A program made the position numbers and the translations under genes. A DNA stretch of 64,000 bases from NCBI GenBank assembly GCA_963714095.1, contig OY970230.1, positions 596,084 to 660,083 on the forward strand, read 5' to 3'. The first letter of the stretch is position 1, and every line of letters begins with the position of its first letter. Under the pieces are notes generated by a model, which was not told where the DNA came from, searched no databases, and saw only the letters and a program-made list of their open reading frames with translations. This DNA is from Candidatus Gottesmanbacteria bacterium. GTDB taxonomy: Bacteria; Patescibacteriota; Microgenomatia; UBA10105; UBA927. Below, in pieces: positions 5,146-33,308 of the stretch.

Positions 5146-6906
5146 TCACTGTTTCTCAACATTATACAGGGGTCCGACGATTTGAATAGTACTTGGCGCC
5201 CGTAAGTTAAAATACGTTTTAAACGTATCGCCGTCAAATGTATGAGTTCCCGCATCTCCGGATACAGTAACTGACATCGTGCGCCCTGTACTAAAATCCG
5301 CGCCTATCGATACGCCGGAAATTGAAGTATATGCGGCGCCTCCTAGTTTAGAGCGGACCGTACCGGCATCCCACGTATCAACTCCATCCGGATTCGGTTT
5401 ATCGGGTTGCGTCAGATGATTTTGAGCACTACTGTCCTGCTGGGCAAGAAGAATAACGTTCACAATATCCGCAAGTTCGTCGGGTTTAAGCCAGGCGGTA
5501 CCGCCGTAATCACTTCTTCCTCCCCAATCACAATAAAACCAGGGAGAGTCGCGGTCATATGCTTTACTGTTTAAATCCGAAAAACTCGCGACAGGTCCGG
5601 TTGTATCAACAGCCCGCTTCGTATACGAAGTACTCGACCACCCCTGCAAATCTCCTGTAGCAAACACATATCCTCCGTGGGTTGAAGAGAAAAATGCTTT
5701 AATCGGAGAACCTCCCTGCATCATGACCTGACCTGCCGTTCCTGCGACCGCAGCGTCCCAATTCCCGCCTTTAGGATTCGGCTGAAACACCTGACACTGC
5801 TGGGTCGTACAGATAGATCCGGCACCGTTATTCGTATACGCCATGACGTATGACCGTACGGCAATTGCCTGAGCCTTGAGGGCGGCCAAATTATTATCCG
5901 TCCAGGAATCTGGTACTTCATACACCCGTTTCACATAATCCTCCAGCGAGAAATCGCCGTATCCGTCCACATGAATTTTTGTATTGGTATCGACGTTTGA
6001 AATGGAGTCAAAATTGTAATATGCCCGCAGAATTGTTTCATCGTCCTGTCCGGCTTTTGCCCGTCCCCATGCCCCATATTGATTTAACCCGACACGGTTT
6101 GGTACGCCGTACGTAAAAAATCCGAATCCGCCGCTAAAGCCCGGGTTTTTCCCGTTTGTCAGGTCACTGGAACAGCCACCACCGCTGATTGCGAAAAGCG
6201 GTATACCTAATCCCGAAAGTTTTTGGCTTAAAAACTCCTGCTGACGGGCGCTGATAACCGCAATATACCCCTGAACCGTCGATTCATACGCATCTGCCTG
6301 AGCAACTAAAGCGCGGACAGCTACCGCCCTCCTGTCCGTGTCAGCCTTGAGCGCCGCGAGTGTGGCTTTTTCATCTTCCAGCGCTTTCTTTTTATCCTCA
6401 AGGTCTTTCACAGAAACGGCAATCTGCGTAATAACTTTTTTATCTTCGTTCACTGCAGCCTGCTGATACCCCATGGTTCGCACTGCCGACCCGATGTTAG
6501 TTGAGGAAAGAAGCAAATACATAGGGTTTAACGTGTAACTGCGCATATAAAACTGACGGATGCGTTCATCAGCCAGCGCTAACGACGCTTCCAGTTCTTT
6601 CTCCCCGGCTGCAATTTCCTGCGTTTTTGTAGCGACATCCGCCTCAATCACGGTAATGCGCGCCTCAAACGCGGCGATCGCCTTGTTCATACTATCCAGT
6701 TCGTCCCGCGACGGACGGACTGCATTTTCCATATTCTGGATACTCTCGCCGCATTTTGCCAACAATCCCCGCAAAAAATCCTGATCTGTGCTTGTCTGCA
6801 CTTTCGCGATATTATCCGGCGTACATTCCTGAGCAATAACGTGCGGCGGGAACATGCTGATACTCAGTGCTACAACAACCAACAACAGCCAGCTTATTCG
6901 TTTCAT
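5146..6906 (-). CDS. secreted SpoIID/LytB-domain protein with N-terminal coiled-coil region
   Basis: Signal peptide (MKRISWLLLVVVALSISMF..AQ), a coiled-coil segment (EKELEASLALADE..KKKALEDEKATLAALKAD), and a C-terminal region with a SpoIID-like motif (ALKAQAIAVRSYVMAYT) and a Gly-rich segment. Confidence 0.55.
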   Translation of the reverse strand: MKRISWLLLVVVALSISMFPPHVIAQECTPDNIAKVQTSTDQDFLRGLLAKCGESIQNMENAVRPSRDELDSMNKAIAAFEARITVIEADVATKTQEIAAGEKELEASLALADERIRQFYMRSYTLNPMYLLLSSTNIGSAVRTMGYQQAAVNEDKKVITQIAVSVKDLEDKKKALEDEKATLAALKADTDRRAVAVRALVAQADAYESTVQGYIAVISARQQEFLSQKLSGLGIPLFAISGGGCSSDLTNGKNPGFSGGFGFFTYGVPNRVGLNQYGAWGRAKAGQDDETILRAYYNFDSISNVDTNTKIHVDGYGDFSLEDYVKRVYEVPDSWTDNNLAALKAQAIAVRSYVMAYTNNGAGSICTTQQCQVFQPNPKGGNWDAAVAGTAGQVMMQGGSPIKAFFSSTHGGYVFATGDLQGWSSTSYTKRAVDTTGPVASFSDLNSKAYDRDSPWFYCDWGGRSDYGGTAWLKPDELADIVNVILLAQQDSSAQNHLTQPDKPNPDGVDTWDAGTVRSKLGGAAYTSISGVSIGADFSTGRTMSVTVSGDAGTHTFDGDTFKTYFNLRAPSTIQIVGPLYNVEKQ

Positions 6907-6983: not shown

Positions 6984-7820
6984 ATGCGGAAAAAATTATT
7001 TTACGTTCTTTTTTTACTAGTCTTCAGTTCCTTGCTTCCCAAAGCAAACGTTGTGAAAGCACAGGGATACATCTACTGCGTCGTGGATGTTCAGGGCTGC
7101 ATACTTAATGTTACGGGTCATCCGGGCGGAGGAGCAATAAATTGTGATACTGGATATGTACCACCTTGCCCTTCAACTGCTCCTGACTGCTGCACATATT
7201 ACGCTACAACACATAACAACAACTGTCCTAACCAGGTTGCGTGTGTTAACCCCGCCGCGCCGACTCCTACACCGACACCAACACCAACCGGTCCGACGCC
7301 TACACCAAATGTAAACGATCCTTGTTATATCCTTCATCAAACTAATCCGACATTATGCAGTGGCAGTGTCCCCTGTAATGATCCTACTAACAATGTCTGT
7401 CAAACGGATCCGAGTCTTCCTGCCCCTTGCACCGGAAAATGTGTATCGAAATCAACCGGACAGAGCGGTACGGCACCCGGCGACGTTTGTAATTTTGCAG
7501 GTACCCAGAAAACCGCGTGCCAAGGGTGTATGGCCAACGGAGCCGGCGCCTGGACTGCACTCGGGTGTATCCATGCCACCCCTCAACTGTTTATTACTGA
7601 AATACTGCGGGTGGGTATCGATATTGCCGGAGGCATTGCACTCCTCCTCATCCTTATCGGCGGGTTCCAGGTTTTAACAAGCTCAGGCAACCCGGAACAT
7701 CTCAATGCAGGGAAAGAACTGATCACCAGCGCCATTGCAGGATTATTGATTATTCTTTTTTCCCTCTTCATTCTCCAACTCATCGGAGTTAAAATATTTG
7801 CTATACCGGGATTTGGATAA
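6984..7820 (+). CDS. Cys-rich secreted protein fused to C-terminal T4SS-pilin-like membrane domain (paralog A)
   Basis: Signal peptide, about 150 aa with over 25 Cys and a PTPTPTPTPTGPTPTP linker, then a pilin-type domain (GIDIAGGIALLLILIGGFQVLTSSGNPEHLNAGKELITSAIAGLLIIL). The last 115 aa are identical to the next gene. Confidence 0.7.
   Translation: MRKKLFYVLFLLVFSSLLPKANVVKAQGYIYCVVDVQGCILNVTGHPGGGAINCDTGYVPPCPSTAPDCCTYYATTHNNNCPNQVACVNPAAPTPTPTPTPTGPTPTPNVNDPCYILHQTNPTLCSGSVPCNDPTNNVCQTDPSLPAPCTGKCVSKSTGQSGTAPGDVCNFAGTQKTACQGCMANGAGAWTALGCIHATPQLFITEILRVGIDIAGGIALLLILIGGFQVLTSSGNPEHLNAGKELITSAIAGLLIILFSLFILQLIGVKIFAIPGFG
7469..7819. repeat. 351-bp direct repeat copy 1 (100% identical to 8361..8711)
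   Basis: Base-by-base comparison of the 3' parts of the two Cys-rich pilin-fusion genes shows identity from tacggcacccggcgacg... to ...ccgggatttggata. Flanks diverge immediately outside. Confidence 0.85.
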
Positions 7821-7983
7821 TATCTATAGCGTCAATTATAAATTGTTAACAATCTCCCCTACCTATCGCATCCTGCTGCATAAATACATCTACAGTTAAT
7901 TGCCAGAGAGATCTAAAACAGTTTTGAACCAAGTTCTATACCTCCGATTTGGAAATAATGCATTTATGCTAAACTGAAAAAGA

Positions 7984-8712
7984 ATGAAAAAACTCCTTTT
8001 TTGTTACTTCCTGCTTCTTGTTCTACCTTTTATTCTTCCTAACCATGTTTTGGGTGCACCCAATTGCTCCAAAAAGACTGGAATGATCGTTGCATGTAAG
8101 GACGCAACGCAACCTGTGCAATGTATGGTGGGATTCGATTACTATTGCTGCGCTACACAAAATGACTGTACTCTCCAACAAAATCTGGGAAATGGGAGTA
8201 CCTGCAAAACGGGTGAAGGCGGTGACGATCAACCTTGTTGTGGTGGAGAGGGTGGTTCATGTAATCCAGGCTTAATTTGTACATATAGTACCTCAGGAAC
8301 AGGATCTATCCAACCAGCGAGTTGGAATTGTTTATCACCAAGTGAGATACCAACAGCTAATACGGCACCCGGCGACGTTTGTAATTTTGCAGGTACCCAG
8401 AAAACCGCGTGCCAAGGGTGTATGGCCAACGGAGCCGGCGCCTGGACTGCACTCGGGTGTATCCATGCCACCCCTCAACTGTTTATTACTGAAATACTGC
8501 GGGTGGGTATCGATATTGCCGGAGGCATTGCACTCCTCCTCATCCTTATCGGCGGGTTCCAGGTTTTAACAAGCTCAGGCAACCCGGAACATCTCAATGC
8601 AGGGAAAGAACTGATCACCAGCGCCATTGCAGGATTATTGATTATTCTTTTTTCCCTCTTCATTCTCCAACTCATCGGAGTTAAAATATTTGCTATACCG
8701 GGATTTGGATAG
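7984..8712 (+). CDS. Cys-rich secreted protein fused to C-terminal T4SS-pilin-like membrane domain (paralog B)
   Basis: Signal peptide (MKKLLFCYFLLLVLPFILPNHVLG), an N-terminal Cys-rich domain different from paralog A, then an identical C-terminal 115 aa. Confidence 0.7.
   Translation: MKKLLFCYFLLLVLPFILPNHVLGAPNCSKKTGMIVACKDATQPVQCMVGFDYYCCATQNDCTLQQNLGNGSTCKTGEGGDDQPCCGGEGGSCNPGLICTYSTSGTGSIQPASWNCLSPSEIPTANTAPGDVCNFAGTQKTACQGCMANGAGAWTALGCIHATPQLFITEILRVGIDIAGGIALLLILIGGFQVLTSSGNPEHLNAGKELITSAIAGLLIILFSLFILQLIGVKIFAIPGFG
8361..8711. repeat. 351-bp direct repeat copy 2 (100% identical to 7469..7819)
   Basis: See copy 1. Confidence 0.85.
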
Positions 8713-8717: not shown

Positions 8718-9074
8718 ATGCATAACAACCTGTTAACACAAAATTTAACGTTGCCGGGGGTGACCGGATCCATTAAGGGGCCCCTCGGTACACTCGGAGG
8801 ATCATCCATAGGGTCCAATTTTACCATCGGGGGCATTCTATCCGCTGCAATTCCTTTAGTTTTTGCCTTTGCAGGTTTAGGGTTACTTTTAATGCTGATT
8901 TCCGCCGGCTACGCGTTTTTAACGAGTGCAGGAGACGCCAAAAAAATGGAACAGGGGAAATCCCGGCTCACCAATGCGCTGGTCGGATTCATTCTTGTAT
9001 TTGCCGCGTACTGGATCGTCCAGCTTACCGGCAACATCTTCGGACTTCAGTCTATTACCACCATCTTCAAATAA
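8718..9074 (+). CDS. T4SS pilin-like protein (VirB2/TrbC-like, CPR type)
   Basis: 118 aa with two hydrophobic segments and the motif LISAGYAFLTSAGDAKKMEQGKSRLTNALVGFILV shared with the other pilin paralogs. Starts 5 nt after the preceding gene. Confidence 0.6.
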   Translation: MHNNLLTQNLTLPGVTGSIKGPLGTLGGSSIGSNFTIGGILSAAIPLVFAFAGLGLLLMLISAGYAFLTSAGDAKKMEQGKSRLTNALVGFILVFAAYWIVQLTGNIFGLQSITTIFK

Positions 9075-9746
9075 TTATTTTCCGAACCGGCGTTGCCGGC
9101 GATTAAATTCTTCAATCGCTTCATCTAAACGCGCGGGGGTAAAATCCGGCATATACCACGGCGGAAAATAGAGTTCACTATAGACACTCTGCCACGGTAA
9201 AAACCCGCTCAAACGCTGTTCCCCGCCCGTGCGGATAACTAAATCCGGATCCGGAATCCCTTTGGTATCTAATAATTGAAAAAATGTCGTTTCCGTAACG
9301 GTTTTCGGATCGGAAATTTTGTGTATTGCGCGGACTATCTCATCTCTCCCGCCATAATTTAACCCAATCGTCAGAACTATTCTTTTATTATGCTTGGTTT
9401 TTTCCACCACGGAAGCAATCCCGCGTCGGAGCCCCTCATCAATTCTCGATAGATCGCCTATAATTCTCAGCTGTACTCCTTTTTTCAGCATACGTTTCCC
9501 GAATATCGGCAAACCCTGCTTTAAAATACGCATAATACCCGCGACTTCATCCGTCGCGCGATTCCAATTCTCCGTAGAAAACGCCCACATGGTTACATAC
9601 CCGATGCCGCGGTCTGCCGCATGTTCAACTAATTTTTCCAATACGATATTTGCGACCCTGCGGTGCCCTTCCAAAATGGGAAGTCTATGCTTTTGTGCCC
9701 ACCGGCGGTTCCCGTCCATAATAATTGCGATATGTTTTGGAATCAT
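9075..9746 (-). CDS. uppS: isoprenyl transferase / undecaprenyl-diphosphate synthase
   Basis: HIAIIMDGNRRWA ... AFSTENW ... cis-prenyltransferase signature motifs. Confidence 0.9.
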   Translation of the reverse strand: MIPKHIAIIMDGNRRWAQKHRLPILEGHRRVANIVLEKLVEHAADRGIGYVTMWAFSTENWNRATDEVAGIMRILKQGLPIFGKRMLKKGVQLRIIGDLSRIDEGLRRGIASVVEKTKHNKRIVLTIGLNYGGRDEIVRAIHKISDPKTVTETTFFQLLDTKGIPDPDLVIRTGGEQRLSGFLPWQSVYSELYFPPWYMPDFTPARLDEAIEEFNRRQRRFGK

Positions 9747-12902: not shown

Positions 12903-12903
12903 A

Positions 12904-13224
12904 TCAGATAGGTTTCACTTTAACACCGTACGGGATAATGCCTTCTGTTGTCGGCTCAGAAATGCGGCGGACGATTACCTTCACCCGTCGTCCGTCCGCT
13001 ATATCTTCTTCACTCCAATCCACAAGCTGTGCTGTAATTCTTCCACCACCGACTAAGTCTACGATGACAACCGGATACGGCGCGAGATTGGAAAAACCAG
13101 CAGGCGGCACACGGATGACCGTCCATGAAACAATAGTTCCCTCGCGGCCAAGCATACCCGCAATATATTTCTGGTTTCTCCAAATTTTCACCGGACTCTG
13201 AATATTCATAAATAGAAACGACAA
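12904..13224 (-). CDS. DUF35-like OB-fold protein (putative scaffold of thiolase/HMG-CoA synthase complex)
   Basis: 106-aa ORF immediately downstream of thiolase and HMG-CoA synthase, as in the archaeal thiolase/HMGCS/DUF35 arrangement. OB-fold-like sequence, with no zinc ribbon detected. Confidence 0.5.
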   Translation of the reverse strand: MSFLFMNIQSPVKIWRNQKYIAGMLGREGTIVSWTVIRVPPAGFSNLAPYPVVIVDLVGGGRITAQLVDWSEEDIADGRRVKVIVRRISEPTTEGIIPYGVKVKPI

Positions 13225-13234
13225 ATATAACTTA

Positions 13235-18025: not shown

Positions 18026-18055
18026 TTGACAGTTGCCTCCATTTGCCCATACAAT
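18026..18055 (+). promoter_or_regulatory. sigma-70-like promoter TTGACA-18nt-TACAAT upstream of pilin array
   Basis: Consensus hexamers read directly from the sequence. The -10 ends 6 nt before the ATG at 18062, implying a leaderless or near-leaderless transcript. Confidence 0.4.
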
Positions 18056-18061
18056 AATTTT

Positions 18062-18391
18062 ATGGAGCGTGTATTTGCGCAAGTAAATATCGGTGATCCC
18101 AACGTTTTTGCTCCCGCCGGCACATTTAAAGATTTCGGGTCTGTCGTTTCCGTGGTCGTCAAGAACGCGGTCGTAGTAGCCGGAATTATCTTTTTTGTTT
18201 TATTGATATTCGGCGCATTCGGCATTATAGTGGGAGCAGGGTCGGGTGACACAAAAAAACTCGAGGAGGGCAAAAAGGCAATAACCGGAGCGGTTATCGG
18301 ACTGCTCATTGTGGTACTGTCGGTTGCTATTGTCCAGATTATCGGCACAGTAACGGGCTTGACGGCAATCCAGACATTGGTCGGAAAATAA
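18062..18391 (+). CDS. T4SS pilin-like protein (array member 1)
   Basis: Starts MERVFAQVNIGDP (compare MEKVFAQAQLNIPQP of array member 5) and has two hydrophobic segments. The ORF-track TTG start at 18026 is replaced by the ATG. Confidence 0.6.
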   Translation: MERVFAQVNIGDPNVFAPAGTFKDFGSVVSVVVKNAVVVAGIIFFVLLIFGAFGIIVGAGSGDTKKLEEGKKAITGAVIGLLIVVLSVAIVQIIGTVTGLTAIQTLVGK

Positions 18392-18396
18392 TATCT

Positions 18397-18768
18397 ATGA
18401 TTGGTGTAGAAAAAATATTTGCGGCGGGCGCAACCGACATTGTAGGAACGGTCGCCAATCCCCTGCCGACGGCATATCAGGGTGTTGCCGGCGGAGGAAT
18501 TATTGTGTTTCTGACCAATATTCTCCGTTTAGTGTTCGTCGCTGCCGGCCTGTTTGCATTCATCAATCTTATTCTTGCAGGATTCCAGTTTATCGGAGCC
18601 GGCGGAGACGCCAAGGCAATCGAAAAAGCCTGGGGCAAAATCTGGCAATCACTGTTGGGACTTGTTTTAATCGTCGGCTCATTTGCGCTGGCCGCACTCA
18701 TCGGATATCTATTATTCAATGACCCCGGATTTATCCTGAAGCCGACGATTTACGGACCAGGATCATAA
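18397..18768 (+). CDS. T4SS pilin-like protein (array member 2)
   Basis: Motif ILAGFQFIGAGGDAKAIEKAWGKIWQSLLGLVLIV. 5-nt spacing from the previous gene. Confidence 0.6.
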   Translation: MIGVEKIFAAGATDIVGTVANPLPTAYQGVAGGGIIVFLTNILRLVFVAAGLFAFINLILAGFQFIGAGGDAKAIEKAWGKIWQSLLGLVLIVGSFALAALIGYLLFNDPGFILKPTIYGPGS

Positions 18769-18771
18769 CCT

Positions 18772-19149
18772 ATGGCACTACTCGCACAAAACCCAATACC
18801 ACTCAATCAATCAATCGGCGGGGCCGGATTGGGGCCGTTTGGTGCAGCCCCGGCGACATCCGGTACAGAGGCCGTTAACCAAATAACCAAAGTCGTGTCT
18901 GATGTCATCGGATTTCTGACGATAACTGCCGGTCTCTGGCTTCTCTTTCAACTGCTGTTCGGCGGATATGAATGGATCTCCAGTGCCGGCGACTCAAAAA
19001 AACTCGCGGCAGCCAGGCAGCGGATTATGAACGGGGTTTTCGGACTTATCATCGTTGTTGGCGCATGGGCAATGATCGCACTCGTCGGCCAATTCCTGGG
19101 ATACGACATTCTCAATCCTGCGGCTAATATTGGAAAATTACAATTTTAA
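18772..19149 (+). CDS. T4SS pilin-like protein (array member 3)
   Basis: Motif LLFGGYEWISSAGDSKKLAAARQRIMNGVFGLIIV. Confidence 0.6.
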   Translation: MALLAQNPIPLNQSIGGAGLGPFGAAPATSGTEAVNQITKVVSDVIGFLTITAGLWLLFQLLFGGYEWISSAGDSKKLAAARQRIMNGVFGLIIVVGAWAMIALVGQFLGYDILNPAANIGKLQF

Positions 19150-19155
19150 CATCGT

Positions 19156-19503
19156 ATGAATACACGCGTGCTTGCACAAATTACAAATCCGGTTCTACCC
19201 GCTTCTTTGGGAAGCGGCGGCACCAGCCAGGGAGGGACAGTACTGGGTAAGTTAATCAGCGGGCTGGTCGGCGCGCTTTTTGTCGCGGGATTCTTGCTGA
19301 CGTTTATGATGCTTATCATCGGTGGCATCCAGTGGATTACTTCCGGCGGCGATAAGCAGGCGCTTGAAAAAGCCAGAAATGGTATTACCAACGCCATTAT
19401 GGGGCTGATTATTGTCGCTGCGTCCTTCGCCCTCATGACGCTTATCGGAAAATTTTTCGGTATCGATATGACAGCACTTACCGTTCCGAGCCTCAGTCAA
19501 TAA
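19156..19503 (+). CDS. T4SS pilin-like protein (array member 4)
   Basis: Motif LIIGGIQWITSGGDKQALEKARNGITNAIMGLIIV. Confidence 0.65.
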   Translation: MNTRVLAQITNPVLPASLGSGGTSQGGTVLGKLISGLVGALFVAGFLLTFMMLIIGGIQWITSGGDKQALEKARNGITNAIMGLIIVAASFALMTLIGKFFGIDMTALTVPSLSQ

Positions 19504-19580
19504 GGTACCTGCCTGTTGACAAGGGGGAATGCATTGCGCAACAATGATATCAAGGAAAAAAACGGTACGAAGGAGGCGGT

Positions 19581-19910
19581 ATGGAAAAGGTATTTGCACA
19601 AGCACAATTGAATATCCCGCAGCCGACGAATATTAAAATCGGCGATATCGGAAAGCTTATCAGTGCGCTCGTGGGGGTACTCCTTATTCTTGCCGCCCTC
19701 ATGGCGTTCTTCTTCCTAATCCTCGGTGGCATCCAGTGGATTACTTCTGGCGGCGATAAAGCCGGCATGGAAGCGGCACGCAATAAAATTACCCATGCAA
19801 TCGTCGGACTCATCATCGTCGGCGCTGCATGGGCCGTCATGATACTTGTCCAGAACTTCCTGGGCATCCAGATTATCGGAGGAAATCTTTCCCTCCCGCC
19901 GGCGTACTAA
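19581..19910 (+). CDS. T4SS pilin-like protein (array member 5)
   Basis: AGGAGG RBS 7 nt upstream. Motif LILGGIQWITSGGDKAGMEAARNKITHAIVGLIIV. Confidence 0.65.
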   Translation: MEKVFAQAQLNIPQPTNIKIGDIGKLISALVGVLLILAALMAFFFLILGGIQWITSGGDKAGMEAARNKITHAIVGLIIVGAAWAVMILVQNFLGIQIIGGNLSLPPAY

Positions 19911-19919
19911 AACGCCGCA

Positions 19920-20276
19920 TTGTCTCTTGCCATACGCCATAATCTGCGCAATAATGTTTCTATGGCTGACTGGACTGCAACCCCGGGGTGTATAGTTCAA
20001 GGCGCGGCGACATTTAAATGTTTTGAGCCGTTATTTACCAACGTTGTTCAGGCGCTTGTCGCACTTGTGGGTGTTGCCCTCTTTATCATGGTGGTCATAA
20101 GCGGCTACGGATTTTTATTCTCAGGCGGAGACCCTAAAAAGCTCGAAAAAGCCCGCGGGACACTCACCGCCGCCGTTGCAGGCGTCGTTATTATAGTCGT
20201 TGCCTATCTCATACTGAAAGCCATTCAACTGTTTACGGGGGTCGATGTCACGCACTTTACGGTTCCGACCAATTAA
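19920..20276 (+). CDS. T4SS pilin-like protein (array member 6; start uncertain)
   Basis: Motif VVISGYGFLFSGGDPKKLEKARGTLTAAVAGVVIIV. An internal Met (MADWTATPGC) may be the true start. Confidence 0.55.
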   Translation: MSLAIRHNLRNNVSMADWTATPGCIVQGAATFKCFEPLFTNVVQALVALVGVALFIMVVISGYGFLFSGGDPKKLEKARGTLTAAVAGVVIIVVAYLILKAIQLFTGVDVTHFTVPTN

Positions 20277-27031: not shown

Positions 27032-29209
27032 TTATAGCTTTTTCGCGTACCGCTCGCGACTTGCGCGTATCACTTTCTCGCGGTTTTGGTTGCGGCTGCG
27101 CGGCAGGGGCAGGGTGACTGCGGAAAAAGGGTTACTCGTGTGATTGTCGATGGAAAGCTTCAAAACTATCTGAAAATTCCCCAGTCCCACAAGTTCCGAC
27201 TCCTCATATGACCCGCCGAACTCACGCGACAGAAGCCGCGCGTCGCCCGCCCCAACACTGAAGGTGACCATGGAACCGGCATTGCCAAAAATTGCCTTCT
27301 GCACATCTTCTTCAATCTGCCCGATATACTGGTTGGCAAGTGTAAGATTGAGGCGGTATTTTCGCGCCTCGGATAATATTTTGATAAACGACTGCGTCGC
27401 AAAATTCTGAAACTCATCGACAAAGAGGTAAAAATCGCGGCGTTCCTCCTCCCCCACATATACACGGTTCATGGCAGCAAGCTGCATTTTGGTAATAATC
27501 ATGGCACCAAGAAGCGCACTTGCATCCTCGCCGAGTTTCCCCTGGGAGAGGTTCACAATCACTATCTTTCCTTTGTTCATCATGTCTTCCAAATCAATCG
27601 TGGAAATTGGCGATCCGACAATGTTTCTAATCGTTTGTGAGGACAAAAATTGTCCGACCTTATTGAGAATCGGCGAGGTGGCTTCCGTTCGCATCTGCGG
27701 ACTCATTTTTGCAAATTCGTTCAACCAAAAATTCTTGAGGACGCGGTCGTCAAGTTTTTCAAGCACTTTTTTACGATACCGGTCGTTGGTTAATAATTCC
27801 GGGACTTGCAGGAGTGTTGAATCCGGCACGTGAAGAAGCGTGAGAATGGTGTTTCTAAGGATATATTCAAGCCGCGGCCCCCAGCTGTAGTGGTACAGTT
27901 TATAAAAAATGGACACGATGCCTGATGCAATAAGCTCGCGGTATGCCGGATTTTTCATTTCCAGCGGATTGAGATGAAAAGGATATTCCAAATCAGAGGG
28001 GTCCAAATACGCCACATCATTAATCCTGTGGGAGGGAATAAAATCCAAAAGGATATCACAGAGGTCCCCGTGTGGATCAATAACTGCCATCCCTTCCCCG
28101 TTTTTCATGTCGTTGATTGCCATATTGGCGATCATCGTTGACTTTCCGGTGCCGGTTTTCCCCATAATATACAGGTGTTTCCGCCTATCATCCTTTTTAA
28201 GACCGAACGTCGTGGTTGCGTTTTTAAACTCCGTCCGGGCAAAAAAATTAATCTTCTTTTTTTCCTCCTCGCTACTTGTGACGACCGGCAGATTTTCCGG
28301 TGCCTCCCCAGGAAGACTTGCGCCCCAAGAAATATTTTTAATCATCGCAAGCGTTGCCCCCGGCGGATGCCAGAGGGAGGCAAGCTCACTGGCGTTTAAT
28401 ACCTGATGGCGGGGTCCCGCATCTGCCGCCCTACTGACAAACGCACCCTCAAGTTTCTTTTTTTGCCAAAAAGCCGGTTCTGCGGTTGTAAGGCCGTTAC
28501 CATCTCCCAGCGTATAAACACCAAATGTCCCACCTACGCTGTACAAAAGTTCTTTTGCCCGCTCGGAGGAAGGAGCGACTCCTAACAACCGAATGGCGGT
28601 AATAAATCCCGGTTGAGCAATTTTTGATTCAATAAGGCGCGCCTGCGGATGCGAGCGTGTTCTGCCCGTTGTCGATGTCGGATCCGGAATACCGCGGGCA
28701 ACAACGGCTGCCGCGTTTCTTTGCCAATTCGTTCCGGCTGGCGCAACGCGGATTTGAACTGCAAGCGCCTCGCCTGCCGGAAGCTTCCCCATGGCACCCA
28801 ACACGCTTGCCAGAAGATCCAGGTCCTTCACTTCCCTGTACGTTCTCAGGGGATAATAAAATGAATTGGTGAACATCAATTGTCCTGACGCATGCGGAAG
28901 CTCCAAAAAATGCGGCGCCCAATCGGAAACCGGCGCCAAAAGCAGTTTTGGATACTGTGCCGTCAACTGACTCTCCAGATATCCCAGCGCTTTTGACGGA
29001 ACGCCGACAAAAAAATGGATCCTGGAATTTACCGCAACGATTTCGAAACTGAAAAACCACGGTCCGTGCCTGGGGCCGAAAAATCTGGATAACAATCCTC
29101 CGTACCCACCGCCGGAGGCAAGCGCCGCAAAAATCTGTTCCATTGCAGACGCCGGTTCTTCCGACTCGCGTGAGTTCTTTACTTCCAATAGTACCAGGGA
29201 TGAATCCAT
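27032..29209 (-). CDS. T4SS coupling-protein-like / DUF87-family P-loop ATPase (VirD4/TraG/HerA superfamily)
   Basis: An N-terminal domain of about 380 aa, then Walker A (IMGKTGTGKST), VIDPHGD, and Walker B (YLFVDEFQNF). No TM helices seen. Confidence 0.55.
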   Translation of the reverse strand: MDSSLVLLEVKNSRESEEPASAMEQIFAALASGGGYGGLLSRFFGPRHGPWFFSFEIVAVNSRIHFFVGVPSKALGYLESQLTAQYPKLLLAPVSDWAPHFLELPHASGQLMFTNSFYYPLRTYREVKDLDLLASVLGAMGKLPAGEALAVQIRVAPAGTNWQRNAAAVVARGIPDPTSTTGRTRSHPQARLIESKIAQPGFITAIRLLGVAPSSERAKELLYSVGGTFGVYTLGDGNGLTTAEPAFWQKKKLEGAFVSRAADAGPRHQVLNASELASLWHPPGATLAMIKNISWGASLPGEAPENLPVVTSSEEEKKKINFFARTEFKNATTTFGLKKDDRRKHLYIMGKTGTGKSTMIANMAINDMKNGEGMAVIDPHGDLCDILLDFIPSHRINDVAYLDPSDLEYPFHLNPLEMKNPAYRELIASGIVSIFYKLYHYSWGPRLEYILRNTILTLLHVPDSTLLQVPELLTNDRYRKKVLEKLDDRVLKNFWLNEFAKMSPQMRTEATSPILNKVGQFLSSQTIRNIVGSPISTIDLEDMMNKGKIVIVNLSQGKLGEDASALLGAMIITKMQLAAMNRVYVGEEERRDFYLFVDEFQNFATQSFIKILSEARKYRLNLTLANQYIGQIEEDVQKAIFGNAGSMVTFSVGAGDARLLSREFGGSYEESELVGLGNFQIVLKLSIDNHTSNPFSAVTLPLPRSRNQNREKVIRASRERYAKKL

Positions 29210-29233
29210 AATTTGATTTTAGCATAAGTAACC

Positions 29234-29262
29234 GGGGTAAGCCCGTGAAAACTCTAATTATC
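29234..29262. promoter_or_regulatory. 8-bp-arm inverted repeat CGTGAAAA-N13-TTTTCACG in divergent intergenic region
   Basis: Read directly from the sequence. Lies between the start of the coupling ATPase (minus) and the PrgI-like gene (plus), making it a candidate operator. Confidence 0.25.
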
Positions 29263-29327
29263 ACTTTTCACGGTCCTGATGCGCTTTGTGCTATTGCGTG
29301 TCGCAAAAAACACCCGTAAAATAAAAA

Positions 29328-30665
29328 ATGAGCCCCTCTAAACACGGGGGAATGTTTGCATTAAGAAATATGGAACAACATCCTGTACCTCAAAACGTTA
29401 CCACGTTTCAATTCCGCCTCATCGGAGACATGACCATCAAACAGTTCGGGTATCTGGCGGGAGGGGCAATTTTAGGCTACATCATGTATAAATTACCACT
29501 GCCGTTTTTCTTTACCTGGCCACTGGCGCTTGTTTTTGCGGTCGGCGGTATCGGATTTGCCTTTGTGCCCATTGAGGAGCGCCCGATGGACGTGTGGGTT
29601 CTATCTTTTATTAAAAGCGTCTACTCTCCCACCCAATTCATCTGGTCAAAACATGTGCAAGAACCCCAGATCGCAAATTCCGCTCCTGTAGCGGTGCAAC
29701 AGAGCGTTAGCCCTGCGCCGTCAACGAGAAAAGGTGACATTCTCAACACTATTTTTCTTCCGGCCGCGCCGGCGGGCGGGCCGACTCCTGCAACCCGCGG
29801 AACTTCTGCCGCGCAAGGCCCTCTCACGCGATCTTCCAAACAAGGAAGCGCGTTTGATTGGTTTTTCAGTTTTTTAACGCCAAAACCAAAAACGGCGTCT
29901 CCGCCGGCTCCTCCGCCAACGACAGGACCGTTACAGGCAGGACAATGGTCGCAGGTGCCGGCGCGGCATATGGATTTCACACCTCCGCCGATCGTCAGAC
30001 CCGCAAAAAAAGTCACCCCGGCACCTGTGAATACGCAACAAAAAGAATCGGTCATTGAAGATAAATTAAAAAAGATTTCCTCTGAACTGAAGGATAAAAA
30101 CGCGACAGCGTCCCAGGCTACTCAACTTCAGACTCAACTGGACCAACTGCTTTCCGAGAGAGAGAAAATGGTTCAGGAGCTGGAAGCACTCCGCAAGCCG
30201 GCGGGCGCGCCGATCGTTGAGCCCGTGGTCGTAAACACCCAATCAACAACTACGACCACCACACAGACAGCGGCCTCGCCGACCATTCAGATTATTGCAC
30301 CCGGACGGGCGACAAAAGTTGGTCTTCCGCGCCTCACCACATTCCCCAATATTGTCACGGGAATCGTCAAAGATAAAGACAAAAACCTTCTGCCCGGCGT
30401 CCTTGTGACGGTAAAGGACAAAGACGGTGTTCCGCTTCGGGCCCTCAAAACGAACCGCCTGGGACAATTTGCGGCGTCAACTCAACTTCCCAACGGCACG
30501 TATCTTGTGGAAATAGAGGATCCGAGATTCCGCTATACGTTTGATCGGGCCCAAATTACCCTTAACGGGTCAATCGTACCCGCTTTGGAAATTTTTGCAA
30601 AAACAGAACAAGAAATAACACGGGCCAAGCTCGAAAAAGAACTGTTTGGAAAACCAAACATATAA
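29328..30665 (+). CDS. PrgI/VirB3-like membrane protein with Pro/Thr-rich linker and C-terminal extracytoplasmic domain
   Basis: N-terminus FQFRLIGDMTIKQFGYLAGGAILGYIMYKLPLP..WPLALVFAVGGIGFAFVPIEERPMDVWV resembles PrgI-family (VirB3-like) proteins. It is followed by a P/A/T-rich low-complexity region and a coiled-coil segment. Confidence 0.5.
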   Translation: MSPSKHGGMFALRNMEQHPVPQNVTTFQFRLIGDMTIKQFGYLAGGAILGYIMYKLPLPFFFTWPLALVFAVGGIGFAFVPIEERPMDVWVLSFIKSVYSPTQFIWSKHVQEPQIANSAPVAVQQSVSPAPSTRKGDILNTIFLPAAPAGGPTPATRGTSAAQGPLTRSSKQGSAFDWFFSFLTPKPKTASPPAPPPTTGPLQAGQWSQVPARHMDFTPPPIVRPAKKVTPAPVNTQQKESVIEDKLKKISSELKDKNATASQATQLQTQLDQLLSEREKMVQELEALRKPAGAPIVEPVVVNTQSTTTTTTQTAASPTIQIIAPGRATKVGLPRLTTFPNIVTGIVKDKDKNLLPGVLVTVKDKDGVPLRALKTNRLGQFAASTQLPNGTYLVEIEDPRFRYTFDRAQITLNGSIVPALEIFAKTEQEITRAKLEKELFGKPNI

Positions 30666-30670
30666 ATACT

Positions 30671-31330
30671 ATGCCAGAACCCATTGTTCCGATTCGATCA
30701 TCCACACAACTATTCAGCGAAATAGAAACTGTTGACCGCGACATTATCATGTACACAGACGGTTCGTGTTCTATGGTTATAAGCGCAACTGCTGTTAATT
30801 TTGACTTGCTTTCCGAAAAAGAACAGGATGCGATCATTTATGCATACGCGGAATTATTAAATTCCCTCTCGTTCCCGATTGAAATTCTTATCCGCACGCA
30901 GCACAAAGACATTACCGCATATCTCTCTTCGCTGGAAGAAAAGGAAAAGAAACAGAAAAACCCGAAGATGGCAGCGGCTATTCATGGGTACCGACAATTT
31001 GTTGCGGCGACCGTTAAAGAGAAGGACGTGCTGGATAAAAAGTTTTACCTTGTGATACCTTTTTCGTTTCTTGAGCTGGGTATGGGAGCAAATGTCTTTT
31101 TGGGCGGGTCGAAAAAACGCAGTCTCCCGTACCCGAGACCATATATTTTTGAACGGGCGGTTACCGTCCTGACACCCAAAGGGGACCACATAATCCGCCT
31201 CCTGAGCCGCATAGGACTCCGCGCAAAACAGTTAACAAACGATCAGCTTATCCGGCTGTTTTATGAAATTTATAACCAGGGAGCCCCAATCGTAAACGAG
31301 GACAGTGTCCAAAAAGCGATCGGGACATGA
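30671..31330 (+). CDS. hypothetical cytoplasmic protein embedded in T4SS cluster
   Basis: 219-aa ORF between the VirB3-like and VirB4 genes. No recognisable motif. Confidence 0.45.
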   Translation: MPEPIVPIRSSTQLFSEIETVDRDIIMYTDGSCSMVISATAVNFDLLSEKEQDAIIYAYAELLNSLSFPIEILIRTQHKDITAYLSSLEEKEKKQKNPKMAAAIHGYRQFVAATVKEKDVLDKKFYLVIPFSFLELGMGANVFLGGSKKRSLPYPRPYIFERAVTVLTPKGDHIIRLLSRIGLRAKQLTNDQLIRLFYEIYNQGAPIVNEDSVQKAIGT

Positions 31331-31340
31331 TGACATAACT

Positions 31341-33302
31341 ATGAATATGCCGAAAAATGTTCAGGCTATACTGAAAACTTTTGTCAATCCCGCTCAGGAT
31401 CCCCTTTCGGGGAAAACCCCCACCGGAGGGCCCGCCTCGCCGGGTCAAGACGGGCCACTCACTGTTAAAGATCTGGTCGCCCCGCCGGCAATTGAGGTGG
31501 ATTTCGACACTATTAAAATCGGCGACCGGTATTTCCGGACGCTGTTTGTCGCCGGATACCCCCGGTTTGTGTCTGCAAACTGGCTTGAGCCGCTCATATC
31601 GTTCACCCACACGCTCGACATTGCGATGTACGTGTATCCCACCAAAAGCGAGGAGGTTTTGGAAAATCTCAAACGCAAGGTCGGCGAAATGGAAGCGACT
31701 ATCCAATCAGACGTGAATCGCGGCAGGGTTGTCGAACCCTCTGTTGAAGTTGCGCTCGAAGATGCGGTTTCTCTCCAGCAGGAATTGGCGAAGGGTGCAC
31801 AGCGCTTTTTCCAGTTTGCCCTCTATATCACCATACCGGCACAAACCGTTGAAGAGCTTAATAAAACGACGAAGCAGGTAGAGGCAACGCTCGCGGCGCT
31901 GCTTATTTTGACAAAACGGGCGATCCTCCAGATGGAAGAGGGGTTCAAAACAACGCTCCCTATGGGGCGGGACATGTTGATGATTACGCGCAATATGGAC
32001 ACCACGTCGCTTGCCACCACGTTTCCGTTTACCACATCGGAGCTTACGGCTAATGAGGGAATTCTTTACGGTATCAACGAGCACAATGAGAGCCTGGTTA
32101 TTTTTGATCGGTTTACGCTTGAAAATGCTAACACCGTCGTGTTCGGAAAATCCGGAAGCGGTAAAAGCTATATGGTGAAACTGGAAATTATGCGGAGCCT
32201 CATGTTTGACACGGAGGTAATCGTCATAGATCCGGAATCCGAATACGAGGCTCTCTGTCACGCACTCGGCGGCGAATATATCCGCTTCCATTTCGGCTCT
32301 GCCACAAAAATTAATCCCTTTGATCTCTCGTTATATACCCAGACCGCAGCAGGGAATGAAGAAAGCGAGCTGAATCAAAAAATACTGTCTTTACATGGAT
32401 TTTTCCGCGTCGTTATGGGCAAACTTACCCCAACTGAGGATGCTCTTCTGGACCGCGCACTTATCCTTACGTATAAACAAAAAGGCATTACCCCTGATCC
32501 TGCCACTCAAATGCTCGAGCCCCCGCTCATGGAAGATTTATACAAATCCCTGATTGGCATGGAAGACACGGGTGCCCAGGGCATGGCTGACCGCATAGAA
32601 AAATTTGTCAAAGGGAGCCTTGTCGGCATTTTCGACCAGCAGACCAACGTAGAAATACGCAATCAATTAACGGTGTTTTCGATCCGCGATCTTGAAGATG
32701 AACTGCGACCCATCGCCATGTATCTTATTCTTGACTACATCTGGACGAAGGTGCGGCGCGACACCAAAAGAAGAATCCTCGTTGTCGATGAGGCGTGGTA
32801 TATGATGAAATATCCCGACTCGGGCGAATTTTTAAACTCCATCGCCAAACGGGCGCGCAAATATTACCTTGGCCTTACAACCATTACTCAGGACGTCGAG
32901 GACTTCTTATCCGTAGACCTCGGAAAGTCCATCATCCAAAACAGCAGCGTTCAGATACTTCTCAAGCAGTCGTCTGCCGCCATTGACAAGATTGCCGACG
33001 TGTTTTATTTATCCGAAGGAGAACAACATTTGCTCCTTTCGTCCGATATCGGCGAGGGTCTATTTTTTGCCGGACCGGCCCATGCGGCCATCCGTGTCAT
33101 TTCCTCACCGGAAGAACACGCTCTTGCTACCACCAAGCCTCAAGATGCAGAACGAAAGGTGGAACAAGAAAAACAGGACGTGCTAAACGCCTCCGCCGCC
33201 AATCCCCCGCCTCACGTGATGATGGAAACAGAAGAATCCAAGCCTACGCGCCCGTCATTTACCGTTGAAACGGTGTCCCAACCGCCGGACAACACAAAAT
33301 AA
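31341..33302 (+). CDS. VirB4/TrbE/CagE-family conjugal transfer ATPase
   Basis: N-terminal VirB4 domain, Walker A (VVFGKSGSGKSY), VIDPESEY, Walker B (ILVVDEAWYMM), and TTITQ... C-terminal motifs. Start trimmed to MNMPKNVQ. Confidence 0.8.
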   Translation: MNMPKNVQAILKTFVNPAQDPLSGKTPTGGPASPGQDGPLTVKDLVAPPAIEVDFDTIKIGDRYFRTLFVAGYPRFVSANWLEPLISFTHTLDIAMYVYPTKSEEVLENLKRKVGEMEATIQSDVNRGRVVEPSVEVALEDAVSLQQELAKGAQRFFQFALYITIPAQTVEELNKTTKQVEATLAALLILTKRAILQMEEGFKTTLPMGRDMLMITRNMDTTSLATTFPFTTSELTANEGILYGINEHNESLVIFDRFTLENANTVVFGKSGSGKSYMVKLEIMRSLMFDTEVIVIDPESEYEALCHALGGEYIRFHFGSATKINPFDLSLYTQTAAGNEESELNQKILSLHGFFRVVMGKLTPTEDALLDRALILTYKQKGITPDPATQMLEPPLMEDLYKSLIGMEDTGAQGMADRIEKFVKGSLVGIFDQQTNVEIRNQLTVFSIRDLEDELRPIAMYLILDYIWTKVRRDTKRRILVVDEAWYMMKYPDSGEFLNSIAKRARKYYLGLTTITQDVEDFLSVDLGKSIIQNSSVQILLKQSSAAIDKIADVFYLSEGEQHLLLSSDIGEGLFFAGPAHAAIRVISSPEEHALATTKPQDAERKVEQEKQDVLNASAANPPPHVMMETEESKPTRPSFTVETVSQPPDNTK

Positions 33303-33308
33303 CGCATT

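What the first reader, a model, noticed from the sequence alone, without database searches (positions are those of the whole stretch)
7469..8711. Two different Cys-rich 'head' domains share a byte-identical 351-bp pilin-anchor cassette
Genes 6984-7820 and 7984-8712 encode unrelated N-terminal cysteine-rich, Pro/Thr-linker ectodomains. Their last 351 nt (115 codons, encoding the T4SS-pilin-like membrane hairpin) are 100% identical at the nucleotide level. Identity stops abruptly at both edges (7468/8360 and 7820/8712). Perfect identity over 351 bp between otherwise divergent paralogs implies very recent or ongoing gene conversion or cassette shuffling. This would be a modular way to display alternative adhesin heads on a common pilus anchor. 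An assembly collapse is the trivial alternative.
Basis: seen in the sequence. Interest (0 to 1): 0.72.

Follow-up and report, generated by a model that had tools for sequence, protein, structure and literature searches.

The report
Two pilin heads, one identical anchor
Two neighbouring surface-protein genes of an ultra-small (CPR/Microgenomates) bacterium carry different cysteine-rich outer domains on a letter-for-letter identical 351-base membrane/pilus anchor, best explained by a very recent recombination event in a gene family that routinely swaps outer domains while keeping the anchor.

Summary
Window 7469-7819 and 8361-8711 are an exact 351-nt direct repeat, and identity falls to random level one base outside each edge. 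The repeat is the 3' end of two tandem genes, 6984-7820 (278 aa) and 7984-8712 (242 aa). Each encodes a signal peptide, a Cys-rich head, then a 116-aa module: a 4-Cys neck plus a two-helix PF18895 T4SS-pilin hairpin.

The pair sits in a locus conserved across Microgenomates: SpoIID(-), headed pilin, short pilin, UPPS(-). All closest relatives have a single headed pilin there.

- Head 1 has a syntenic ortholog (P0001/L081).
- Head 2 has only two relatives among 1.84 billion representatives. Both lie at the same locus in distant, lower-GC genomes, on a different 2-Cys neck.
- Of 175 family members, heads form 106 clusters. Anchors 80-97% identical usually carry unrelated heads.
- A Beckwithbacteria locus (L071) shows a 140-nt exact conversion tract between the anchors of two differently headed paralogs.

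Best reading: a real, very recent non-reciprocal recombination placed the resident anchor behind an imported head. I cannot separate gene conversion from duplicative insertion, and cannot exclude assembler homogenisation without reads. No dedicated switching machinery was found. I rate it a new variant of a known kind, of moderate interest.

The parts
6984..7820 (+). Gene 1, a headed VirB2-like pilin of 278 aa. It has a signal peptide (about aa 1-27), Cys-rich head 1 with a Pro/Thr linker (14 Cys), then the shared 116-aa neck-plus-hairpin module.
   Evidence: ORF. PF18895 at 28.7 bits. Hydrophobic N-terminus and two C-terminal TM stretches, and the Cys count. The syntenic ortholog P0001/L081 is 46-50% identical over the head.
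7469..7819 (+). Repeat copy 1: the 351-nt anchor cassette, comprising the 4-Cys neck, TM helix 1, the SSGNPEHLNAGKE loop, TM helix 2, IPGFG, and TA of the stop codon.
   Evidence: Exact identity to 8361-8711. The module is conserved across the family (A1). AlphaFold2 pLDDT is about 90. GC3 is 0.49, typical of the window.
7821..7983 (+). AT-rich spacer (GC 0.34) between gene 1 and gene 2. It is unique sequence and presumably holds gene 2's own promoter.
   Evidence: Composition. No similarity elsewhere in the window. No consensus sigma-70 promoter or terminator on the + strand.
7984..8712 (+). Gene 2, a headed VirB2-like pilin of 242 aa. It has a signal peptide (about aa 1-24), Cys-rich head 2 (12 Cys in the mature head), then the same 116-aa module.
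   Evidence: ORF. PF18895 at 29.0 bits. Head 2 has only two relatives, P0121 and P0122, in an exhaustive HMMER search. Head GC3 is 0.31, below all 32 window genes tested.
8361..8711 (+). Repeat copy 2 of the 351-nt anchor cassette.
8718..9074 (+). Short, head-less PF18895 pilin of 118 aa with no Cys. It is the conserved downstream partner of the headed pilin and starts 5 nt after the gene 2 stop.
   Evidence: PF18895 at 37.5 bits. A short pilin follows the headed pilin in nearly all of about 85 related loci.
5146..6906 (-). SpoIID/LytB-domain protein, the conserved upstream flank of the locus.
   Evidence: Pfam and NCBIfam hits. Synteny.
9075..9746 (-). Undecaprenyl-diphosphate synthase, the conserved downstream flank of the locus.
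   Evidence: Pfam hit. Synteny.
18026..20276 (+). Array of six short PF18895-like pilin genes, the likely major or other subunits of the same apparatus.
   Evidence: hmmsearch with the anchor profile.
27032..35738 (.). T4SS machinery: a VirD4-like coupling ATPase (27032-29209, -), a PrgI/VirB3-like protein (29328-30665, +), a VirB4-like ATPase (31305-33302, +) and a C39-like peptidase-domain protein (33309-35738, +). It lies next to dnaN and dnaA (36383-39037).
   Evidence: Pfam hits.

Best explanation
Both genes are real, intact paralogs of a Microgenomates-wide family of 'headed' VirB2-like pilins. The architecture is a Sec signal peptide, a hypervariable disulfide-rich head outside the cell, a 4-Cys neck, and a two-helix membrane/pilus hairpin.

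The 351-nt identity is the footprint of a very recent non-reciprocal recombination event. The lineage's resident anchor, that of gene 1 (the syntenic ortholog), was copied behind head 2. Elsewhere, head 2 sits on a different neck and anchor, and here it has a foreign-like, low-GC3 composition. The most likely route is RecA-type gene conversion between tandem paralogs, as caught mid-way in L071. A duplicative insertion of a head-anchor allele cannot be separated from it.

The functional result (inferred) is that two alternative heads share one anchor. Both would then fit the same short-pilin partner and the same origin-proximal T4SS. They probably act as alternative host-surface recognition or adhesion modules.

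Shown: the identity, the architecture, the synteny, head turnover across the family, and a conversion tract in a relative. Inferred: the direction of copying, the mechanism, surface display and the adhesin role.
For: - The repeat is exact with razor-sharp edges.
- There are zero synonymous differences in 116 codons. The nearest foreign anchors are at most 75% identical in amino acids. Other tandem pairs are 69-84% identical in nucleotides or undetectable.
- The locus SpoIID(-) | headed pilin | short pilin | UPPS(-) is conserved in about 85 loci. The closest relatives (L082, L007, L027, L047, L081) have one headed pilin, so the second gene is derived.
- The head 1 ortholog P0001 carries the same 4-Cys neck pattern, C..GTQ...C..C.
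- Head 2 has only two relatives. They lie at the same locus in distant genomes (SmpB 45-46% identical, against 93% in L007). They carry a short 2-Cys neck.
- Head GC3 is 0.31 and 0.38, below all 32 window genes (0.39-0.60). The cassette is at 0.49. Head 2 homologs are at 0.30-0.34 in genomes of 39-41% GC.
- In L071, a 140-nt exact tract sits in a 70% identity background between the anchors of differently headed paralogs. None of 200000 shuffles reached that run length.
- Across the family, 175 heads fall into 106 clusters. Only 18% of pairs with anchors 80-90% identical have homologous heads. Several pairs have anchors 89-97% identical and unrelated heads.
- L087 and L088 are about 80-84% identical in nucleotides, except for an unalignable head lying between signal peptide and neck.
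- No recombinase, reverse transcriptase or transposase was found among the scanned window ORFs.
Against: - No reads or close strains (>90% identity) were available. Neither protein is on record in the collections. So neither the two-copy structure nor the exactness of the identity could be verified independently.
- Classical conversion tracts end inside homologous sequence and leave diverged homologous margins, as in L071. Here identity covers the whole homologous module up to the stop codon. That fits a duplication or insertion of the whole cassette at least as well.
- If gene 2 originally had a 2-Cys-neck anchor about 46-49% identical in amino acids, there would have been little nucleotide homology to start conversion.
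- The donor direction rests on neck type and composition, not on a phylogeny.
- Anchor identity tracks flank identity only weakly over 65 loci (rho 0.20, p 0.11).
- Low head GC3 could partly reflect the unusual amino-acid make-up of the heads.
- Pilus incorporation and adhesin function are untested.
Confidence: 0.6

Rival explanations
1. The event was a duplicative insertion rather than intrachromosomal gene conversion. A second head-anchor gene, or a small circular or linear fragment carrying spacer + head 2 + anchor, entered the resident locus. It could have come from a sibling strain with a head-2 allele on the same anchor. Entry would be by recombination within the anchor, either Campbell-like or homology-facilitated illegitimate recombination after natural transformation. 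That would create A-S-A directly.
For: - The structure head1-A-S-A-short pilin is what a single crossover within A between the chromosome and an S+A molecule would give.
- It cannot arise by a simple tandem duplication, because no second copy of S and no head-2-like sequence lies upstream of copy 1.
- The edges are razor-sharp, with no diverged homologous margin.
- The spacer and head 2 form a low-GC block.
- Allelic head replacement at this locus exists in related genomes.
- The ancestral state is a single gene.
Against: - No donor allele (head 2 on this anchor) was found anywhere.
- The right-hand junction falls exactly inside the stop codon, without convincing microhomology.
- Known head 2 relatives carry another neck type.
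- The scenario only moves the head/anchor fusion event one step back.
Confidence: 0.22
2. It is an assembly or polishing artefact. Either the two genes belong to different strains or loci and were joined through the shared repeat, or two similar but non-identical anchors were given the same consensus by bubble popping or multi-mapped polishing.
For: - The window is evidently a metagenome-assembled CPR contig.
- A 351-nt repeat exceeds typical k-mer sizes, and variants inside a repeat are often flattened.
- No independent assembly of this locus exists in the searched collections.
Against: - All four junctions (head1>A, A>spacer, head2>A, A>short pilin) are unique and in frame.
- A>spacer cannot be produced by joining two allelic loci. 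The spacer has no similarity to the gene 1 upstream region or to the SpoIID flank.
- A collapse yields one copy, not two.
- Tandem headed pilins occur in about 10 independently assembled relatives.
- Near-identical anchor tracts between paralogs are seen in L071.
Confidence: 0.1
3. It is a programmed switching device. The 351-nt direct repeats would serve as substrates for reversible loop-out and re-integration of the 892-bp spacer + head 2 + anchor unit, or for copy-number changes. That would give phase variation of head 2 display.
For: Direct repeats of this length, 892 bp apart, are efficient RecA substrates (established knowledge). The loop-out product would restore exactly the single-gene ancestral arrangement seen in relatives.
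Against: - No recombinase, integrase, reverse transcriptase or inverted-repeat sites were found.
- No other of about 90 loci has such repeats.
- An excised 892-bp circle has no way to persist.
- Nothing distinguishes this from the incidental instability of any tandem repeat.
Confidence: 0.05
4. The identity is kept by selection on the sequence itself, for example an embedded RNA or regulatory element or extreme codon constraint, rather than by recent copying.
For: None specific. The module is the most conserved part of the family.
Against: - Orthologous and paralogous anchors elsewhere differ freely at synonymous and many non-synonymous sites, at 69-84% nucleotide identity at best.
- No Rfam match at E<=1.
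Confidence: 0.01

Closest known systems
VirB2-like pilin arrays of Patescibacteria/CPR T4SS (Pfam PF18895). Examples are the essential six-pilin array of Ca. Southlakia epibionticum and the 441 arrays reported by Quinonero-Coronel et al. 2025 (PMC12102498; review PMC12857230).
   Same: The Pfam family and the two-helix hairpin are the same. So are the tandem arrangement, the chromosomal T4SS near dnaA, the Microgenomates host and the absence of a relaxase context. The window also holds a six-gene short-pilin array.
   Different: Reported array members are short and highly divergent, averaging 25% identity with a maximum of 54%. Here two members carry 100-140-aa Cys-rich heads in front of a conserved 4-Cys neck. 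Their pilin parts are 100% identical at the DNA level. They also sit in a separate, deeply conserved SpoIID/UPPS locus rather than in the array. I found no description of headed pilins or of their head turnover in the papers read.
Gene-conversion-driven pilin variation, such as Neisseria pilE/pilS. Also tandem variant VirB2/Trw pilin paralogs of Bartonella and Anaplasma.
   Same: A conserved pilin scaffold is combined with alternative exposed parts. Homologous recombination between paralogous copies is the driver. The likely purpose is variation of host or surface recognition.
   Different: - There are no silent promoterless cassettes. Both copies are complete genes with start codon and signal peptide.
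- The converted or identical part is the constant anchor, not the variable part.
- Variation is in whole N-terminal domains rather than in mini-cassettes.
- The scaffold is a T4SS (VirB2-type) pilin, not a type IV pilin.
R64 shufflon (PilV tip adhesin with alternative C-terminal segments).
   Same: Alternative receptor-recognition segments are joined to one constant pilin part. This is linked to partner specificity in a conjugation-type system.
   Different: The shufflon uses the Rci site-specific recombinase and inverted sfx repeats, swapping 3' segments by inversion. Here the repeats are direct, no recombinase is present, the variable part is 5', and both versions are encoded side by side.
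Concerted evolution of duplicated bacterial genes by gene conversion, for example tufA/tufB or rRNA operons.
   Same: Paralogous segments are exactly identical, including at synonymous sites. General recombination maintains or creates the identity.
   Different: Here only one domain-sized module of each gene is homogenised, and the adjoining domains are non-homologous. The boundaries coincide with the domain boundary and the stop codon.

Membership tests
Pfam PF18895 T4SS_pilin (VirB2-like pilins of CPR and Mollicutes ICEs) | Score above the curated gathering threshold of the family HMM. | tested here: met
   Scores are 28.7 bits (gene 1), 29.0 bits (gene 2) and 37.5 bits (short pilin), against a cut-off of 26.6. 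Most of the 120 listed homologs carry precomputed PF18895.
Pfam PF18895 T4SS_pilin (VirB2-like pilins of CPR and Mollicutes ICEs) | An N-terminal signal peptide, followed by two hydrophobic helices joined by a short polar loop. | tested here: met
   Kyte-Doolittle hydrophobic stretches lie at aa 5-27, 202-237 and 242-278 in gene 1, and at 1-26, 166-201 and 206-242 in gene 2. AlphaFold2 gives helices 200-232 and 237-271 at pLDDT about 90. The signal-peptide cleavage site was judged by eye only.
Pfam PF18895 T4SS_pilin (VirB2-like pilins of CPR and Mollicutes ICEs) | Genomic association with T4SS machinery (VirB4, VirB3/PrgI, VirD4, VirB6). | tested here: met
   VirD4-like, PrgI-like and VirB4-like genes lie at 27-33 kb, and a six-pilin array at 18-20 kb, in the same window. 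The headed pair is 10-20 kb away from them, not adjacent.
Pfam PF18895 T4SS_pilin (VirB2-like pilins of CPR and Mollicutes ICEs) | Polymerisation into, or incorporation in, an extracellular T4SS pilus. | not testable with these tools
   This needs microscopy or biochemistry. Even for short CPR pilins a pilus is still only proposed (PMC12857230).
Canonical VirB2/TrbC/TraA conjugative pilins (PF04956 and solved pilus structures) | Sequence or fold match to solved or curated VirB2-type pilins. | tested here: inconclusive
   No PF04956 hit at E<=0.01. A profile search of PDB sequences found nothing at E<=1. The Foldseek top hit is the Aeropyrum pernix conjugation pilus 8dfu, but at E=1.1, prob 0.72 and TM(target) 0.55.
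Silent-cassette pilin antigenic variation (pilE/pilS type) | One expressed locus plus promoterless, 5'-truncated silent copies that donate variable segments. | tested here: not met
   Both copies are full ORFs with ATG and signal peptide. No further partial copies of the cassette or of either head exist in the 64-kb window.
Shufflon / site-specific inversion systems | A tyrosine recombinase (Rci-like) and inverted recombination sites flanking the alternative segments. | tested here: not met
   The repeats are direct, and only a trivial 20-nt palindrome was found. No recombinase domain was found in the scanned ORFs.
Diversity-generating retroelement | A reverse transcriptase plus a template/variable repeat pair differing at adenines. 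| tested here: not met
   The repeat pair is 100% identical. No reverse transcriptase domain was found in the scanned ORFs.
Gene conversion / concerted evolution between tandem paralogs | Identity at synonymous sites far above that of orthologs and of other paralog pairs. | tested here: met
   There are no differences in 351 nt here. Other tandem pairs are at 69-84% nucleotide identity. The closest foreign anchors are at most 75% identical in amino acids.
Gene conversion / concerted evolution between tandem paralogs | A mosaic pattern: an identical tract embedded in diverged but homologous flanks. | tested here: not met
   In the window, identity spans the entire homologous module, and the flanks are non-homologous. 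The mosaic is seen in the relative L071, as a 140-nt tract. This is why duplicative insertion stays a live rival.

The most novel reading that the evidence does not exclude
The SpoIID/UPPS-flanked 'headed pilin' locus is the missing adhesin or host-recognition determinant of the essential CPR type IV secretion apparatus. Its disulfide-rich heads would be a horizontally exchanged cassette pool: over 100 head types on one vertically kept neck-plus-hairpin anchor. They would be swapped at a fixed breakpoint between signal peptide and neck. The window then catches a cell line that has just doubled its repertoire by putting an imported head onto a copy of its own anchor. In effect this would be a modular host-range switch for epibiotic bacteria.
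Probability: 0.3. Interest if true: 0.8.

Novelty: new variant of a known kind. Interest (0 to 1): 0.5.

Why it matters
CPR/Patescibacteria depend on host bacteria. Their T4SS and VirB2-like pilin array are essential in the one species tested, yet no adhesin has been found for these systems (PMC12102498, PMC12857230).

A conserved locus encoding pilin-anchored, hypervariable, disulfide-rich heads is an obvious candidate for the host-recognition component. The family data give concrete, testable evidence that heads are exchanged as modules on a constant anchor. Those data include the identical anchor pair here, the conversion tract in L071 and the head replacement between L087 and L088.

If that holds, head type could predict host range in uncultured Microgenomates. 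The anchor could also serve as a display scaffold.

If only the narrow finding holds, it is a clean but ordinary example of recent recombination between tandem paralogs.

Tried and rejected
- **Exact-protein look-ups.** Neither gene is on record.
- **Close strains.** The word-based homolog search, the GTDB genome scan and the JGI metagenome scan found nothing closer than about 75% anchor identity. Strain-level tests of exchange or of assembly correctness were therefore impossible.
- **Head 2 homologs.** The word-indexed search found nothing. Only the exhaustive HMMER search found two relatives.
- **Codon-threaded nucleotide identities.** My first attempt was out of register for most pairs, and an earlier script crashed. 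I replaced the nucleotide values with blastn and ungapped comparisons. Only the amino-acid identities are used.
- **Simple tandem duplication.** Rejected, because A-S-A has no second S and no head-2-like sequence upstream of copy 1.
- **Chimera of two allelic loci.** Rejected, because the spacer does not resemble the gene 1 upstream region or the SpoIID flank.
- **Structure of the heads.** AlphaFold2 confidence is below 50, so no fold search of the heads is meaningful. The PDB fold search of the whole model gave no significant hit.
- **Vertical inheritance of the anchor.** I tested for a correlation between anchor identity and flank identity. It was weak (rho 0.20, p 0.11), so that claim is made only for the few closest relatives.
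- **Other scans.** The promoter/terminator scan was uninformative. Rfam found nothing.
- **Dedicated recombination machinery.** No recombinase, reverse transcriptase or transposase was found.
Full report
**1. Observation**

Window 7469-7819 and 8361-8711 are an exact 351-nt direct repeat at an offset of 892 nt. Identity in the 20-200 nt outside either edge is 15-33%, which is random level. No other long near-exact repeat exists in the 64-kb window.

The repeat is the 3' end of two same-strand ORFs, 6984-7820 (278 aa) and 7984-8712 (242 aa). It comprises the last base of one codon, 116 complete codons, and TA of the stop codon; the stops are TAA and TAG. A third ORF, 8718-9074 (118 aa), starts 5 nt after gene 2.

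**2. What the genes are**

- All three ORFs pass the Pfam gathering threshold for PF18895 T4SS_pilin.
- Each long protein has a hydrophobic N-terminal signal-like segment, a Cys-rich head, and two C-terminal hydrophobic helices.
- Mature gene 1 has 14+4 Cys and mature gene 2 has 12+4. These even numbers fit extracellular disulfides.
- The heads show no similarity to each other beyond the signal peptide.
- AlphaFold2 models the shared module with pLDDT about 90, as a helix carrying three of the four neck cysteines, a beta-hairpin (WTALGCI), and two long helices joined by the SSGNPEHLNAGKE loop. The heads are below pLDDT 50.
- The best PDB fold match is an archaeal conjugation pilin (8dfu), but it is not significant. 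A profile search of PDB sequences found nothing.

*Genomic setting.* The window is chromosomal and origin-proximal, holding dnaA and dnaN. It also carries a CPR-type T4SS and a six-gene short-pilin array:

| Feature | Coordinates |
|---|---|
| Six-gene short-pilin array | 18026-20276 |
| VirD4-like ATPase | 27032-29209 |
| PrgI-like protein | 29328-30665 |
| VirB4-like ATPase | 31305-33302 |

 This matches published descriptions of Patescibacteria T4SS.

**3. Family and locus**

A search with gene 1 found 187 homologs, and the named ones are Gottesmanbacteria or Microgenomates. Most align only over the C-terminal 30-60% of the query, and their lengths run from 154 to 485 aa.

The alignment shows a conserved module of about 115 aa under hypervariable heads. 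The module reads C-x-F-A-G...C-x2-C-M...W-T-A-L-G-C-I, then TM1, SAGNPExLNAGKE, TM2 and IPGFG.

I examined eighty GTDB loci plus ten from metagenome and other public assemblies. They show a deeply conserved arrangement: bPH(-), SpoIID(-), headed pilin(+), short pilin(+), UPPS(-), MVD(-).

- 54 of the 80 GTDB loci have one headed and one short pilin.
- About ten loci have two headed pilins in tandem.
- Anchors in those tandem pairs are 40-71% identical in amino acids.
- At the nucleotide level they are 84% (L071), 76% (L085), 70% (L067), 69% (L063) or undetectable.

The window pair, at 100%, is the extreme.

**4. History of the two genes**

The closest relatives by flanking genes are L082, L007, L027 and L047, with L081 more distant (SpoIID 64%). 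For example, SmpB is 93% identical in L007, and the short pilin is 86% identical in L082. All of them have a single headed pilin, so the tandem is derived.

*Head 1.* It has a syntenic ortholog, P0001 in L081, with 48-50% head identity and the same 4-Cys neck pattern.

*Head 2.* It had no word-index homolog. An exhaustive HMMER scan of 1.84 billion representatives found two, P0121 at 53% and P0122 at 47%.
- Both lie at the same place downstream of SpoIID, but in distant genomes (SmpB 45-46%, bPH 38-39% identical).
- Both carry a short 2-Cys neck.
- Homology to head 2 runs right up to the repeat boundary and then changes character.

*Composition.* It changes at the same boundary.

| Segment | Value |
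|---|---|
| Head 1, GC3 | 0.38 |
| Head 2, GC3 | 0.31 |
| Spacer, GC | 0.34 |
| Cassette, GC3 | 0.49 |
| All 32 other window genes tested, GC3 | 0.39-0.60 |
| Head 2 homologs (genomes of 39-41% GC), GC3 | 0.30-0.34 |

Head 2 therefore looks imported and the anchor looks resident. Gene 1 is the likely donor of the anchor. This is an inference.

**5. Is module exchange a property of the family?**

It appears so.

- Among 175 headed pilins, the heads fall into 106 BLASTP clusters, of which 78 are singletons.
- Only 18% of pairs with anchors 80-90% identical have detectably homologous heads.
- Several pairs with anchors 89-97% identical have unrelated heads.
- L087 and L088 are syntenic genomes about 80-84% identical in nucleotides through the flanks, anchor and short pilin. 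They are unalignable exactly between the signal peptide and the neck (306 nt against 462 nt).
- L071 has two differently headed paralogs, separated by a third gene. Their anchors are 84% identical overall, with a 140-nt exact tract in a 70% background. None of 200000 shuffles reached that run length. This is a textbook conversion mosaic.
- Heads also grow by internal duplication: a 100% identical 99-nt repeat in L027 and a 92% identical 143-nt repeat in L082.

**6. Mechanism**

Identity at every synonymous site rules out protein-level constraint, and no Rfam element overlaps the region. No recombinase, reverse transcriptase or transposase was found in the window. General homologous recombination is therefore the candidate.

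A simple tandem duplication cannot produce head1-A-S-A-short pilin. Two routes remain.

- **(a) Gene conversion of an older tandem paralog's anchor.** L071 and the existence of older tandems support it. Against it, there is no diverged homologous margin, and a 2-Cys-neck anchor would have offered little nucleotide homology.
- **(b) Duplicative insertion of an S+A unit by a crossover inside A.** The sharp edges, the low-GC S block and the single-gene ancestral state support it. Against it, no donor allele was found, and the junction falls exactly in the stop codon.

I favour (a)-type recombination only slightly. Both are recent non-reciprocal copying of the resident anchor.

**7. Artefact check**

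All four repeat/unique junctions are distinct and in frame. The A>spacer junction cannot arise from joining two allelic loci, because the spacer resembles neither the gene 1 upstream region nor the SpoIID flank. A collapse would yield one copy.

What cannot be excluded without reads is that an assembler or polisher gave one consensus to two nearly, but not perfectly, identical copies. 'Exactly identical' should therefore be read as 'at least nearly identical'. With zero differences in 351 nt, the 95% upper bound on divergence is about 0.9% if the consensus is faithful.

**8. How it likely works (inferred)**

After signal-peptide cleavage the head and neck lie outside the membrane. The hairpin has the VirB2/TraA topology, with both termini outside and the loop inside (established knowledge for F and VirB2 pilins). 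An N-terminal head would therefore face outward on the cell surface or on a filament.

The invariant pairing with a head-less short pilin suggests a heteromeric unit. The headed subunit could be a minor or tip subunit, or a membrane-anchored receptor-binding subunit.

Identical anchors make both heads equally compatible with the partner and the T4SS. Extreme head turnover is what is expected of a host-recognition surface under diversifying selection in epibiotic CPR. No T4SS adhesin has been detected in CPR so far.

**9. Comparison, novelty and verdict**

CPR VirB2-like arrays are known. Reported members are short and at most 54% identical. In the papers I read, I found no description of headed pilins, of their conserved SpoIID/UPPS locus, or of head exchange.

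The system works like pilin variation by recombination, but it fails the defining features of pilE/pilS, shufflons and DGRs (see the membership table).

It is a new variant of a known kind. The repeat itself is of moderate interest. The family-wide modularity it points to is of higher potential interest.

Noticed in passing
window 18026-20276 (+), then 20317-21762 (+) and 21781-25644 (-): Six tandem short PF18895-like pilin genes (109-125 aa). They are followed by a 481-aa ORF and a 1287-aa ORF, neither with any Pfam hit. Two of the short pilins share a 72% identical 136-nt stretch (19312-19446 and 19716-19850).
   Followed up: partly
window 27032-39037: T4SS genes (VirD4-like, PrgI-like, VirB4-like and a C39-like peptidase-domain protein) lie directly next to dnaN (36383-37492) and dnaA (37652-39037). 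This is the origin-proximal T4SS placement reported for CPR.
   Followed up: partly
L071 1249-1388 and 3021-3160: A 140-nt exact tract sits inside a 292-nt region that is 70% identical outside the tract. It lies between the anchors of two differently headed pilin paralogs separated by a third pilin gene, in a Beckwithbacteria MAG. This is a clear gene-conversion mosaic.
   Followed up: yes
L027 5764-5862 / 5884-5982; L082 759-901 / 918-1060: There are internal tandem repeats inside pilin heads: 99 nt at 100% identity in L027 and 143 nt at 92% in L082. In L082 they encode repeated 'CTTTGGWTGTC...YGCCG' Cys modules, so heads also evolve by module duplication.
   Followed up: partly
L087 5016-5321 vs L088 3468-3929: Two syntenic genomes are about 80-84% identical in nucleotides. 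Their headed pilins share signal peptide, neck, anchor and short pilin, but have completely unalignable heads (306 nt against 462 nt). This is allelic head replacement with the same breakpoint as the window repeat edge.
   Followed up: yes
L002, L003, L009, L011 and many other loci; L053: Many GTDB records carrying this Microgenomates-specific locus are titled 'uncultured Gammaproteobacteria bacterium' (TPA_asm binchicken MAGs). One is titled 'Candidatus Bathyarchaeia archaeon'. The record titles look wrong for these contigs, or the contigs are mis-binned.
   Followed up: no
window 9743-16571 (-): A run of mevalonate-pathway genes: diphosphomevalonate decarboxylase-like, a fused kinase/Nudix-like 479-aa ORF, a GHMP kinase, a thiolase, an HMG-CoA synthase-like gene and HMG-CoA reductase. 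It lies next to UPPS, and this flank is conserved in relatives.
   Followed up: no
window 6984-7468 and 7984-8360: Both heads have GC3 (0.38 and 0.31) below every one of 32 other window genes (0.39-0.60). This suggests that heads in general, not only head 2, are horizontally exchanged, or that they are under unusual codon usage.
   Followed up: partly
window 39148-63985: A large block of glycosyltransferases, Wzy_C/O-antigen-ligase-like proteins, PMT_2-like proteins, an RGP-like protein, a radical SAM/SPASM protein and a 914-aa PQQ/beta-propeller protein. It is probably a cell-surface glycan locus.
   Followed up: no
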